A stretch of 64,000 nt of DNA from the human T2T-CHM13v2.0 reference genome, Homo sapiens. Where the stretch lies: the NCBI RefSeq assembly GCF_009914755.1, contig NC_060929.1. One strand, given 5' to 3'. The stretch's first letter is position 1, and each line of letters starts with the position of its first letter. The position numbers and the translations under genes were made by a program. The notes below the pieces were generated by a model. That model ran no database searches, was not told the origin of the DNA, and saw only the letters and a program-made list of their open reading frames with translations. This document shows, piece after piece, positions 30,458 through 37,682 of the stretch.

Positions 30458-30858
30458 GGCCGGAGGCGGTGACTCACACTTGTAATTCCAGCACTTTGGG
30501 AGGTTGAGGTGGGCCAATCTCCCGAGGTCAGGAGTTCAAGACCAGCCTGGCCAACATGGTGAAATCCTGTCTCTACAAAAAATACAAAAATGAGCTGGGC
30601 GTGGTGGTGGGCACCTCTAGTCACAGCTATTTGGGATTGAGGCAGGAGAATCTCTTGAACTTGGGAGGCAGAGGTTGCAGTGAGCTAGGATCATGGCACT
30701 GCGCCCCAGCCTGGGAGACAGAGCAAGACTCTGTCTAGAAAGAAAAAAAGAAGGAAGGAAAGAAAGAAGGAAGGAAGGAAGGAAGGAAGGAAGGAAAGAA
30801 AGAAAGAAGGAAAGAAAGAAAGAAAGAAAGAAAGAAAGAGAAAGAAAGAGAGAAAGAG

Positions 30859-30925
<67 letters not shown>

Positions 30926-30960
30926 GGAAAGAAGGAAGGAAGGAAGGGAGGGAAGGAAAA
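30458..30960 (+). mobile_element. AluS (Sx-like) with tail expanded into a ~225-bp (GGAA)n/(GAAA)n microsatellite
   Basis: Alu body 30458-30736; 15-bp TSD gaaaatgag(t/a)aacta at 30443-30457 and 30961-30975. Confidence 0.95.
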
Positions 30961-31020: not shown

Positions 31021-31218
31021 CTTTTTTTGAGTCTTTTATTAGTTTATCAGAGATGTACATATGTAGGGAAGTACAAGTGATATTTTCATACATGTATACA
31101 ATGAGTAATGATTAAATCAGGGTAATTGGGATATCCATCATCTCAAACTTTGTTCTTTTCTTCGTATTGCGAACATTAAGATTCTCTTCTATTTTGAAAT
31201 ATACAATAAATAATTGTT
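31021..31218 (-). mobile_element. L1MA4/5-like 3' end, left piece (host of the chimeric insertion)
   Basis: 'catgtatacaatgagtaatgattaaatcagggtaattgggatatccatcatctcaaac...tttgaaatatacaataaataattgtt' continues seamlessly at 37683. Confidence 0.85.
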
Positions 31219-31431
31219 TTTTATTATTATTATACTTTAAGTTCCATGTACATGTGCACAACGTGCAGGTTTGTTATATATGTATACACGTGCCATGTTG
31301 GTGTGCTTCACCCATTAACTCATCATTTACATTAGGTATATCTCCTAATGCTATCCCTCCCCCCACTCCCCAGCCCACGACAGGCCCCAGTGTGTGGTGT
31401 TCATCACCCTGTGTCCAAGTGTTCTCATTGT

Positions 31432-35258
<3,827 letters not shown>

Positions 35259-35321
35259 TATGATGTTAGCTGGTTATTTTGCTCATTAGTTGAGGCAGTT
35301 TCTTCCTAGTAGCGATGGTCT

Positions 35322-36347
35322 TTACAATTTGGGATGTTTTTGCAGTGGCTGGTACTGGTTGTTCCTTTCCATGTTTAGTGCTTCCTTCAGGAGCTCTTGT
35401 AAGGCAGGCCTGGGGGTGACAAAATCTGTCAGCATTTGCTTGTTTGTAAAGGATTTTATTTCTCCTTCACTTATGAAGCTTAGTTTTGCTGGATATGAAA
35501 TTCTGGGTTGAAAATTATTTTCTTTAAGAATGTTGAATATTGGCCCCCACTCTCTTCTGGCTTGTAGAGTTTCTGCCGAGAGATCTGCTGTTAGTGTGAT
35601 GGGCTTCCCTTTGTGGGTAACCCAACCTTTCTCTCTAGCTGCCCTTAACATTTTTTCCTTCATTTCAACTTTGGTGAATCTGACAATTATGTGTCTTGGA
35701 GTTGCTCTTCTCCAGGAGTATCTTTGTGGCATTCTCTGTATTTCCTAAATTTGAATGTTAGCCTGCCTTGGTAGGTTGGGGAAGTTCTCCTGGATTATAT
35801 CCTGCAGAGTGTTTTCCAACTTGGTTCCATTCTCCCCATCACTTTCAGGTACACCAATCAGACATAGATTTGGTCTTTTCACATAGTCCCATATTTCTTG
35901 GAGGCTTTGTTCATTTCTTTTTAGTCTTTTTTCTCTAAACTTCTCTTCTCACCTCCTTTCATTCATTTGATCTTCAATCACTGATACCCTTTCTTCCAGT
36001 TGATCAAATCAGCTACTGAAGCTTGTGCATGCATTACGTAGTTCTTGTGCCATGGTTTTCAGCTCCATCGGGTCATTTAAGGTCTTCTCTATGCCGTTTA
36101 TTCTAGTTAACCATTCGTCCAATCTTTTTTCAAAGTTCTTAGCTTCTTTGTGATTGTTTCGAAGATCCTCCTTTATCTCGGAGAAGTTTGTTATTACTGA
36201 TCTTCTGAAGCCTTCTTCTCTCAACTTGTCAAAGTCATTCTCCTTCCAGCTTTGTTCCATTGCTGGCAAGGAGCTCCATTCCTTTGGAAGAGAAGAGGCA
36301 CTCTGATTTTTAGAATTTTCAGTTTTTCTGATCTGGTTTCTCCCCAT
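35322..36347 (-). pseudogene. L1 ORF1p remnant
   Basis: Fragments MGRNQIRKTENSKNQSASS... and ...RATPRHIIVRFTKVEMKEKMLRAAREKG...LNMERNNQYQPLQKH, broken by stop/frameshift. Confidence 0.95.
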
Positions 36348-37384
36348 CTTTGTGGTTTTATCTACCTTTGGTCTTTGATGATGGTGACGTACAGATGGGA
36401 TTTTGGTGTGGATGTCCTTTCTGCTTGTTAGTTTACCTTCTAACAGTCAGGACCCTCAGCTGCAGGTCTGTTGGAGTTTGCTGGAGGCCCACTCCAGACC
36501 CTGTTTGCCTGGGTGTCACCATCGGAGGCTGCAGAACTGCAAATATTGCAGAAGAGCAAATGTTGCTCCCTGATCAATCCTCTGGAAGCTTCGTCTCAGA
36601 GGGGCACCTGGCCTTATGAGGTGTCAGTCAGCCCCTACTGGGAGGTGCCTCCCAGTTAGGCTACTCGGAATTCAGGGACCCACTTAAGGAGGCAGTCTGT
36701 TGGTTCTCAGATCTCATACTCCATGCTGGGAGAATCACTACTCTCTTCAAAGCTGTCAGATAGGGACATTTAAGTCTGCAGAAGTTTCTGCTGCCTTTTG
36801 TTCAGCTATGCCCTGCCCCCAGAGGTGGAGTCTACAGAGGCAGGCAGGCCTCCTTGAGCTGTTCTGGGCTCCATCCAGTTCGAGCTTCTAGGCTGCTTTG
36901 TTTACCTACTCAAGCCTCAGCAATGGTGAGCGTCCCTCCCCCAGCCTTGCTGCCACCTTGCAGTTCGATCTCAGGCTGCTGTGCTGGCAGTGAGCAAGGC
37001 CCCATGAGCATAGGACCCTCTGAGCCAGGTGTGGGATATAATCTCCTGGTGTGCCATTTGCTAAGACCATTGGAAAAGCAGAGTATTAGGGTGGGAGTAA
37101 CCCGATTTTCCAGGTGCTGTCTCTCATGGCTTCCCTTGGCTAGGAAAGGAAATTCCCCGACCCCTTGCACTTCCCGGGTGAGGCCATGTCTCGCTCTGCT
37201 TCAGCTCATGGTCCGTGGGCTGCACCCACTGTCCTGCACCCACTGTCTGACAAGTCCCAGTGAGATGAACCCAGTACCTCAGTTGGAAATGCAGAAATCA
37301 CCCGTCTTCTGCATGACTCACGCTGGGAGCTGTAGACTGGAGCTGTTCCTATTCGGCCATCTTGGAACCTCCCTGAACTTGATG

Positions 37385-37666
37385 TTTGTGCAAACTACTA
37401 GTACTGGAATGCCCAAGTTATGTGTAAGTGTATCCGCACCCAGAGGTAAAACTACACTGTCATCTTTGTCTTCTTGTGATGCAGTATTTCTTCTCAGGGG
37501 AGAAGCCAGGAAGTCTTCTCCTGGCTGTACATATTCTTGGAAGTCTCTAATCACCAGCAGTAGCATGTTCTTCCCCACAGGGAGCTTGGAGCACGAGCGG
37601 CTGGAGACCTCGCTGAGGATGCAGGACCAAAGGTTCTGCCCATCCTCGACATCTCCTGCCGCAGCC
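37385..37666 (-). pseudogene. DYNC1LI1: Processed (intronless) fragment of cytoplasmic dynein 1 light intermediate chain 1 mRNA with internal exon-skip, fused to the L1 5' end
   Basis: Translation AAAGDVEDGQNLWSCILSEVSSRSCSKLPVGKNMLLL|VIRDFQEYVQPGEDFLASPLRRNTASQEDKDDSVVLPLGADTLTHNLGIPVLVVCT matches recalled LIC1 residues ~37-73 and ~190-245. The symbol given is the parent gene. Confidence 0.95.
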
Positions 37667-37682
37667 ACAATAAATAATTGTT
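37667..37682. repeat. 16-bp target-site duplication (right copy; left copy 31203-31218)
   Basis: ACAATAAATAATTGTT is identical at both ends; the empty site reads TGTT/AA, close to the L1 endonuclease consensus TTTT/AA. Confidence 0.95.

What the first reader, a model, noticed from the sequence alone, without database searches (positions are those of the whole stretch)
37500..37630. Captured cDNA records an exon-skipped LIC1 isoform lacking the P-loop
Seen: GKNMLLL runs in frame directly into VIRDFQEY. In the LIC1 protein as I recall it, about 116 residues lie between these points (G74-L190), including GEDGAGKT. The junction codon G|TG (37554|37553) is what joining the first base of Gly74 to the last two bases of Leu190 would give, as expected for a phase-1 to phase-1 splice (recalled exon 2 to exon 5). 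The recalled exon 1/2 junction (~37628|37627) is also intron-free. Inference: a P-loop-less splice form existed in the germline or early embryo when L1PA5 was active, so this is a molecular fossil of alternative splicing.
Basis: partly seen in the sequence, partly recalled or inferred. Interest (0 to 1): 0.75.

Follow-up and report, generated by a model that had tools for sequence, protein, structure and literature searches.

The report
Exon-skipped dynein cDNA fused to L1
A dead fragment of the dynein light-intermediate-chain gene on chromosome 5 is a copy of an old RNA in which exons 3 and 4 were spliced out and exon 5 was joined to a full-length L1 jumping element, which then pasted the whole thing into the genome; it is a neat but ordinary example of two known phenomena.

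Summary
On the minus strand, window 37665-37384 aligns to the parent gene DYNC1LI1 on contig C3 as the exon 1 tail, exon 2 and exon 5, with no introns. The missing 348 nt are exactly exons 3 (117 nt) and 4 (231 nt). Both gap ends sit on canonical splice sites in the parent (exon 2 ...CTGG|gtaagt; ...ttcag|TGATT exon 5).

The same LLL-V-IRDFQEY junction occurs in 13 of the 120 listed LIC1 protein clusters. These come from placental mammals, including two primates, and one marsupial, so the P-loop-less form is already a predicted isoform.

New here:
- The DYNC1LI1 piece stops at the exon 5 splice donor, with its last base differing from the parent.
- It is followed by 10 unassigned nt and then a 6.15-kb full-length L1.
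- A perfect 16-nt target-site duplication (31203-31218 / 37667-37682) encloses both, so one L1 retrotransposition event inserted a chimeric RNA.
- This matches the mRNA/LINE-1 5' chimera class of Law & Burns 2026, whose table of 17 does not list this locus.

A 9-of-10 match to the linker, preceded by AG, lies in parent intron 5. It hints at cis-splicing to a lost intronic L1. This is a new member of a known kind, of moderate interest.

The parts
37667..37682 (-). Upstream copy of the 16-nt target-site duplication (AACAATTATTTATTGT on the minus strand). It is preceded by TT, giving a TT/AACA endonuclease-like site.
   Evidence: Perfect 16-nt direct repeat with 31203-31218. The 15-nt core occurs 2 times in the window against 0.07 expected, and 0 of 100 shuffles had 2 or more. 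Flank read.
37666..37666 (-). One base (G) between the TSD and the start of DYNC1LI1 homology. It is either untemplated or a mismatch.
   Evidence: The parent has C at this position.
37628..37665 (-). DYNC1LI1 exon 1 tail (38 nt, codons about 37-50). It is 5'-truncated inside the coding sequence.
   Evidence: blastn to L003, 33 of 37 identities. The parent exon ends ...CCTTTG|gtaacg.
37554..37627 (-). DYNC1LI1 exon 2, complete (74 nt).
   Evidence: 71 of 75 identities to L003. Parent flanks are ag|GTCCTGC ... CTGCTGG|gtaagt.
37384..37553 (-). DYNC1LI1 exon 5, complete (170 nt). It is joined directly to exon 2, with exons 3 and 4 absent. The last base (37384) is C where the parent has G.
   Evidence: 166 of 170 identities to L002. 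Parent flanks are ttcag|TGATTAG ... GCACAAAG|gttagt.
37374..37383 (-). 10-nt linker (ATCAAGTTCA) of unassigned origin between the exon 5 end and the L1 5' end.
   Evidence: It is not part of L1: 30 sampled L1 5' ends share only about 8-10 nt upstream of the CCAAGATGG motif. Linker plus L1 start is unique in the genome. The best parent-locus match is 9 of 10, preceded by AG, in intron 5 at C3:32536470.
31219..37373 (-). Full-length L1 (about 6.15 kb) ending in a short degenerate A-rich tail. Its reading frames are broken.
   Evidence: Its 5' terminus aligns with other L1 5' termini. The longest stop-free stretch on the minus strand is 241 aa. The 3' end and A-rich tail were read. The hub's masked intervals cover 31183-37375.
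31203..31218 (-). Downstream copy of the 16-nt target-site duplication.

Best explanation
**What it is.** DYNC1LI1P1 is the 5' part of a single L1 retrotransposition product made from a chimeric RNA. That RNA ran: DYNC1LI1 exon 1, exon 2, exon 5 (exons 3 and 4 skipped by ordinary GT/AG splicing), 10 nt, then a full-length L1.

**Shown.**
- The cDNA is colinear with exons 1, 2 and 5, with junctions exactly on the parent's splice sites.
- The gap equals exons 3 plus 4, which is 348 nt, in frame, and removes the P-loop.
- The DYNC1LI1 part ends at the last base of exon 5.
- One perfect 16-nt TSD and one A-rich tail enclose the DYNC1LI1 piece and the L1 together.

**Inferred, about 0.6.** The exon 5 donor was spliced to an acceptor just upstream of an L1. 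This happened either in cis, to a now-absent sense L1 in DYNC1LI1 intron 5, or in trans. The L1's own proteins then copied the fusion RNA into chr5 by target-primed reverse transcription. Reverse transcription stopped inside exon 1.

**Inferred.** The event was germline and roughly catarrhine in age. The fragment is non-functional.
For: **Splice junctions.**
- Exon-by-exon matches to C3 and blastn place the pieces.
- Canonical donor and acceptor sites flank exon 1, exon 2 and exon 5 in the parent.
- Exons 3 and 4 are 117 and 231 nt, both phase 1-1.
- The identical protein junction occurs in 13 of 120 listed LIC1 clusters. Another 10 of 120 use the same exon 5 acceptor after exon 3.

**Exon 5 donor.**
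- Other models read VVCT-K-FVHEK (3 models) or diverge right after VVCTK.
- Window homology ends at ACAAA, followed by one differing base.

**Single insertion event.**
- The 16-nt TSD encloses both parts.
- The L1 reaches the common L1 5' terminus.

**Known class.** Law & Burns 2026 (PMC13174262; section 13, passages of section 20 and Table S5 read) report 17 such chimeras:
- 15 are sense-oriented and most carry a near-full-length L1.
- 6 end at splice donors.
- Junction linkers of 2-12 nt are listed.
- Extra 8-24 nt pieces map in downstream introns.

**Candidate cis site.** AG|ATCAATTTCA lies in parent intron 5, directly after an Alu A-rich tail. Control 10-mers reached such a hit in the exon-5-to-gene-end region in 75 of 2000 shuffles of the linker and 97 of 2000 composition-matched random 10-mers.
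Against: - The last base of exon 5 is C in the window and G in the parent. A splice model therefore needs one later substitution at that exact site. All 4 non-CpG differences elsewhere are also transversions, but the per-site chance is only about 1.6%.
- No L1PA-like DNA lies in the 50 kb of the present human parent locus. No other place in the genome holds the linker next to an L1 5' end.
- The intron 5 match has one mismatch, lacks a pyrimidine tract and was found post hoc. Over the whole 50 kb, 225 of 2000 shuffles give such a hit.
- The isoform models in other species are computational predictions. Their transcript support was not seen here.
Confidence: 0.8

Rival explanations
1. Reverse-transcriptase template switch. 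ORF2p copied an L1 RNA to its 5' end, added or copied about 11 nt, then jumped onto a DYNC1LI1 RNA and continued towards its 5' end. That RNA was either an exon 2-5 spliced mRNA or a free 5'-exon splicing intermediate ending at exon 5. The exon skipping is still real under this model. Only the way the two RNAs were joined differs.
For: - Homology to the parent strictly ends one base before the exon 5 end. It is followed by 11 nt with no exact source.
- No L1 lies in the parent locus today.
- Template switching is the accepted route for U6/L1-type chimeras. For PMC4476161 only the search listing and abstract start were seen. The mechanism is also drawn in Law & Burns Fig. 7B (legend passage).
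Against: - Landing within 1 nt of one of about 12 internal exon ends of a roughly 2.5-kb mRNA is about a 1-2% coincidence (my own estimate).
- Template-switch chimeras typically carry 5'-truncated L1 parts, whereas this L1 is full length.
- Law & Burns disfavour template switching where a splice junction is present.
Confidence: 0.25
2. The 348-nt gap is not splicing. It is a deletion after insertion, or an internal slip of the reverse transcriptase on a full exon 1-5 cDNA.
For: Nothing specific.
Against: - Both gap ends fall on the exact exon 2 donor and exon 5 acceptor, with only the one-base G ambiguity expected of a splice junction.
- The gap equals exon 3 plus exon 4 exactly.
- The same junction is modelled in 13 of the 120 listed LIC1 clusters.
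Confidence: 0.02
3. Two independent insertions. A DYNC1LI1 processed-pseudogene fragment landed first, and an L1 later inserted next to it.
For: RefSeq annotates only the 281-nt pseudogene as a unit (hub table).
Against: - One perfect 16-nt TSD spans both parts, and the repeat search lists no other repeat pair that would flank the L1 or the DYNC1LI1 piece alone.
- The DYNC1LI1 piece has no poly(A) of its own. It abuts the L1 5' end in the same orientation.
Confidence: 0.02

Closest known systems
mRNA/LINE-1 5' chimeric insertions ('5' transduction events'), Law & Burns, Cell Genomics 2026 (PMC13174262)
   Same: - The gene exons are in sense orientation, fused to the 5' end of a near-full-length L1.
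- One TSD, an endonuclease-like site and an A tail surround the whole.
- The exon part ends at a splice donor.
- There is a short unassigned linker. Their Table S5 lists linkers of 2-12 nt.
- No L1 lies in the donor gene today.

   Different: - The locus is not in their Table S5. File 4 has 0 occurrences of 'DYNC1LI1' and 0 of 'chr5'.
- The gene part reaches as far as exon 5, skips two internal coding exons and is 5'-truncated in exon 1. Their cases mostly carry the first one to three exons from the transcript start.
- The intron after the last included exon is only about 3.9 kb. They report a median of 48 kb.
[quoted passage not shown]
   Same: A retrocopy preserves an alternative exon-exon junction of its parent gene.
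   Different: Only the title was seen, in the reference list of PMC5470649. The paper itself is not held, so its content is recalled. Here the carrier is an L1 fusion RNA, not a polyadenylated mRNA mobilised in trans.
Predicted LIC1 isoforms lacking exons 3-4 (for example Chrysochloris X2, Ochotona X4, Gracilinanus X2; Ensembl-derived UniRef entries of Papio, Saimiri, Sciurus and others)
   Same: The LLL-V-[IV]RDFQEY junction is identical and about 116 residues are missing, including GEDGAGKT.
   Different: Those are models of live transcripts, 371-408 aa long and complete to the C-terminus (the Moschus model stops short of it). The window holds only codons about 37-246, with 8 amino-acid changes and no start codon.
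U6/L1 and other template-switch chimeric retrocopies
   Same: Two RNAs are copied into one insertion with one TSD.
   Different: In those, a small RNA sits on a 5'-truncated L1 and no splice site is involved. Here the L1 is full length and the junction sits at an exon end. For PMC4476161 only the listing and abstract start were seen.

Membership tests
DYNC1LI1 exon 3+4-skipped transcript | Exon 2's last base is joined to exon 5's first base at canonical GT/AG sites of the parent. | tested here: met
   CTGCTGG|gtaagt and ttcag|TGATT. Window junction at 37554|37553.
DYNC1LI1 exon 3+4-skipped transcript | The missing length equals exon 3 plus exon 4 and is in frame. | tested here: met
   117 + 231 = 348 nt = 116 codons.
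DYNC1LI1 exon 3+4-skipped transcript | The same junction is seen in independent annotations. | tested here: met
   13 of the 120 listed clusters. Nine of them were aligned and a tenth, the Moschus model.
DYNC1LI1 exon 3+4-skipped transcript | Junction reads or an annotated isoform in human. | not testable with these tools
   No RNA-seq or transcript table was available. The only human short form listed, the 446-aa CRA_a, skips exon 4 alone.
L1-mediated (TPRT) insertion | A target-site duplication flanks the insert. | tested here: met
   Perfect 16-nt repeat at 31203-31218 and 37667-37682.
L1-mediated (TPRT) insertion | An A-rich tail at the 3' end and an endonuclease-type site. | tested here: met
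   Short degenerate A-rich tail before the TSD. TT/AACA at the upstream flank, judged by eye against the recalled TT/AAAA consensus.
mRNA/LINE-1 5' chimera (Law & Burns class) | The gene exons are in sense orientation directly 5' of a near-full-length L1, inside the same TSD. | tested here: met
mRNA/LINE-1 5' chimera (Law & Burns class) | The gene part terminates precisely at a splice donor. | tested here: inconclusive
   It ends at the last base of exon 5, but that base is C against the parent's G. A 10-nt linker follows.
mRNA/LINE-1 5' chimera (Law & Burns class) | Both parts arrived at the same time, by multi-species alignment. | not testable with these tools
   No other primate genomes are held.
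Template-switch chimeric retrocopy (U6/L1 type) | The junction is at an arbitrary position of a 5'-truncated L1, and the 5' part is usually a whole small RNA. | tested here: not met
   The L1 reaches its common 5' terminus. The 5' part is an internal stretch of an mRNA ending at an exon boundary.
Classical processed pseudogene | Its own poly(A) tail and the 3' end of the parent mRNA. | tested here: not met
   The fragment stops at exon 5 of 13 and has no A tail of its own.

The most novel reading that the evidence does not exclude
The 10-nt linker is the upstream flank of a vanished, sense-oriented, retrotransposition-competent L1. That L1 once sat in DYNC1LI1 intron 5 at C3:32536461-32536470, having inserted into the A-rich tail of an Alu. 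Exon 5 was cis-spliced to the AG ten bases upstream of it. This locus would then be a case where the source site of an mRNA/L1 chimera can be pinpointed. It would argue for cis-splicing to unfixed intronic L1 alleles rather than trans-splicing as the route to such chimeras.
Probability: 0.3. Interest if true: 0.55.

Novelty: new member of a known kind. Interest (0 to 1): 0.38.

Why it matters
- It shows that the exon 2-to-5 (P-loop-less) splice of DYNC1LI1 was already being made in the heritable cell lineage of an ancestral primate. That fits its presence in gene models from placental mammals and a marsupial.
- It adds an uncatalogued, anatomically clean example to the small set (17) of mRNA/L1 5' chimeras.
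- Because it carries a 10-nt linker with a candidate intronic origin, it offers a concrete test of cis- versus trans-splicing models for how L1 picks up host exons.
- It has no sign of present function. The fragment lacks a start codon, carries 8 amino-acid changes, and the L1 is dead.

Tried and rejected
- **Linker from exon 6:** rejected. The parent's exon 6 begins TGTGATGCCATT... and does not match.
- **Linker from the parent locus, exact:** no exact 9-mer or longer of the 12-nt junction string lies on the sense strand of the 50-kb parent region. The antisense strand was checked only for the full 12-mer.
- **Linker as part of L1:** rejected. The 30 sampled L1 5' ends diverge beyond about 10 nt upstream of the shared motif.
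- **Extant source element:** a 28-nt pattern allowing up to 2 mismatches hit only the window itself.
- **L1 in the parent gene:** blastn of the whole window L1 against C3:32523001-32573000 gave 0 hits at E 1e-10 or better.
- **L1 subfamily and age:**
  - The closest of the 30 sampled L1 5' loci (28 gave a hit) is 89.1% identical over 1.4 kb. This does not name a subfamily.
  - Resemblance to the 5' start of the MAP3K13 'L1PA5' element in Table S5 was judged by eye only.
- **Literature:**
  - 'DYNC1LI1P1' gave 0 papers.
  - 'DYNC1LI1' with 'exon skipping' gave 2 papers, 1 listed and irrelevant.
  - 'DYNC1LI1' with 'alternative splicing' and 'exon 3' gave 1 paper, which is about intermediate chains, not LIC1.
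- **PDB sequence search:** it returned only LIC2-type chains, aligned in two stretches that confirm the discontinuity.
- **Not attempted:**
  - A structure prediction of the P-loop-less isoform.
  - Whether a human 407-aa entry exists. It could not be checked because clusters show only their representative.

Full report
**Observation**

The minus strand of window 37680-37318 is open for 120 codons. It reads AAAGDVEDGQNLWSCILSEVSSRSCSKLPVGKNMLLL-V-IRDFQEYVQPGEDF...GIPVLVVCTN and then runs into L1 5' UTR sequence.

A PDB sequence search aligned this peptide to dynein light intermediate chain 2 in two separate stretches: query 4-40 to residues 19-59, and a second stretch that reaches residue 232. 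The discontinuity is therefore real.

**Parent gene and junctions**

A DNA search of the window's own assembly found the parent on contig C3, minus strand:
- window 37554-37385 matches C3:32537979-32538148 at 98% identity;
- window 37631-37554 matches C3:32567290-32567367 at 94% identity.

Local blastn added the exon 1 tail, 33 of 37 identities.

The parent flanks are canonical splice sites:
- exon 1 ...CCTTTG|gtaacg;
- a 202-nt intron;
- ...ccgttag|GTCCTGC (exon 2, 74 nt) ...CTACTGCTGG|gtaagtg;
- ...gattttcag|TGATTAGAG (exon 5, 170 nt) ...GCACAAAG|gttagt.

The two window junctions therefore lie at 37628|37627 and 37554|37553. The junction codon is G|TG.

A protein search of the genome laid out the parent exon by exon and showed that only C3 (parent), C16 (LIC2) and the window on C5 match the LIC1 protein. 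Cutting out exons 3 and 4 gave 117 and 231 nt. Together that is 348 nt or 116 codons, both exons phase 1-1. Translating exon 2 plus exon 5 of the parent gives ...GKNVLLLVIRDFQEY.... The segment removed carries GEDGAGKT.

**Is the splice form known?**

A search for longer relatives listed 120 LIC1/LIC2 clusters. By pattern count:
- 13 of 120 carry LLL-V-[IV]RDFQ, the exon 2-to-5 junction. They are 371-408 aa long and come from Sciurus, Papio, Saimiri, Suricata, Balaenoptera, Ovis, Chrysochloris, Oryctolagus, two Bos entries, Moschus, Ochotona and the marsupial Gracilinanus.
- 10 of 120 join exon 3 to exon 5, including a human 446-aa entry.
- 2 of 120 join exon 2 to exon 4.

Nine of the 13 were aligned and a tenth, the Moschus model. 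These are computational models and I did not see their transcript support. The P-loop-less form is thus already in annotation. The window shows that it was also made in an ancestral primate.

**How the cDNA got there**

- The DYNC1LI1 homology ends at ...GTTTGCACAAA. The next base is C, where the parent has the last exon 5 base G.
- That exon 5 ends here is supported independently. Models from three species read VVCT-K-FVHEK, and others diverge right after VVCTK.
- Ten unassigned bases follow (37383-37374), and then an L1 begins at about 37373.
- Among 30 L1 5' ends sampled from the genome, similarity stops about 8-10 nt upstream of the shared CCAAGATGG motif. This L1 is therefore full length and the linker is not L1.
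- The L1 runs about 6.15 kb to a short degenerate A-rich tail at 31219. Its frames are broken: the longest stop-free stretch on the minus strand is 241 aa.
- A perfect 16-nt direct repeat at 31203-31218 and 37667-37682 encloses the DYNC1LI1 piece and the L1 together. Its 15-nt core has 2 hits in the window against 0.07 expected, and 0 of 100 shuffles had 2 or more.
- The upstream flank gives a TT/AACA site.

One target-primed reverse transcription event therefore inserted one chimeric RNA, and reverse transcription stopped inside exon 1.

**Mechanism of the fusion**

The anatomy matches the '5' transduction' mRNA/LINE-1 chimeras of Law & Burns 2026 (PMC13174262; I read section 13, passages of section 20, and parts 1-2 of Table S5). 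They report:
- 17 cases in hg38, 15 of them sense-oriented, most with near-full-length L1;
- 6 ending exactly at splice donors;
- 4 undetermined because of short junction sequences, with 2-12 nt listed;
- several with extra 8-24 nt pieces mapping in downstream introns.

Their table has 0 occurrences of 'DYNC1LI1' and 0 of 'chr5', so this locus is not catalogued there. Part 3 of the file was covered by these term searches but not read.

I searched for a source:
- Linker plus L1 start is unique in the genome.
- The 50-kb parent locus holds no L1PA-like DNA.
- It holds no exact 9-mer or longer of the junction string on the sense strand.
- With one mismatch allowed, three 10-mer hits appear.

One of those three hits lies in intron 5, about 1.5 kb downstream of exon 5. 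It is preceded by AG and lies directly after the A-rich tail of a sense Alu. An A-rich tail is the kind of site L1 endonuclease favours, and the spacing would suit a TSD.

An AG-preceded hit with at most one mismatch arose by chance as follows:

| Region | Shuffles of the 10-mer with a hit | Composition-matched random 10-mers with a hit |
|---|---|---|
| Intron 5 | 14 of 2000 | 25 of 2000 |
| Exon 5 end to gene end | 75 of 2000 | 97 of 2000 |
| Whole 50 kb | 225 of 2000 | 252 of 2000 |

This is suggestive, but the criteria were chosen post hoc.

Against a pure splice model, it requires a later G-to-C change at 37384. Against a template switch, landing within one base of an exon end is a 1-2% coincidence by my estimate, and the L1 is not truncated. 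I put splice-mediated fusion at about 0.6, template switch at about 0.25, and the specific intron 5 source site at about 0.3.

**Age**

Against the spliced parent, the fragment differs at 13 of 281 positions (37665-37385). Nine of these are at CpG sites, and all 4 non-CpG changes are transversions. The 8 amino-acid changes are all on the pseudogene side, because every aligned mammal keeps the parent residue. This fits a neutral copy some tens of millions of years old.

The first bases of this L1 resemble those of the element that Law & Burns label L1PA5 in the MAP3K13 chimera, by eye only. The closest of the 30 sampled L1 5' loci (28 gave a hit) is 89.1% identical over 1.4 kb.

**Verdict**

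The idea that retrocopies preserve splice variants is in print (Shemesh et al. 2006). I saw only its title in a reference list, the paper is not held, and its content is recalled.

This is a new member of known kinds. Interest is moderate, mainly for the cis- versus trans-splicing question.

Noticed in passing
window 37385-37665: The hub's gene table gives DYNC1LI1P1 as '+', but the sense strand of the cDNA is the minus strand of the window. The annotated ends (37385, 37665) match the homology limits found here to the base.
   Followed up: yes
parent gene, G000:C3:32541819-32542908 (L005): Exons 3 (117 nt) and 4 (231 nt) are both phase 1-1. Each is skipped alone in some models: 10 of 120 clusters skip exon 4, including a human 446-aa entry, and 2 of 120 skip exon 3. 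All skip forms put Val at the junction with exon 5.
   Followed up: partly
window 37384-37665: Of the 13 differences from the parent, 9 are at CpG sites. All 4 non-CpG differences are transversions, as is the G-to-C at the last exon 5 base.
   Followed up: no
window 37220-37247: An exact 14-nt tandem duplication (CTGCACCCACTGTC twice) lies inside the L1 5' UTR.
   Followed up: no
window 30465-30960: Just beyond the downstream TSD flank lie an Alu-like element and a long (CTTT/CTTC)n-type microsatellite, read on the minus strand.
   Followed up: no
Law & Burns Table S5, MAP3K13 row: In that L1PA5 chimera, the start of the L1 jumps from about base 98 (…CCAACTGAG) to a CTTTGAAGAG… stretch, as do several other rows. 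These look like spliced L1 RNAs. The L1 in this window continues past that point into further 5' UTR sequence.
   Followed up: no
G000:C3:32536470-32536620 (L005), parent intron 5: A sense-oriented Alu with an (AATAAT)n-type tail ends in AG immediately before the 9-of-10 match to the linker.
   Followed up: partly
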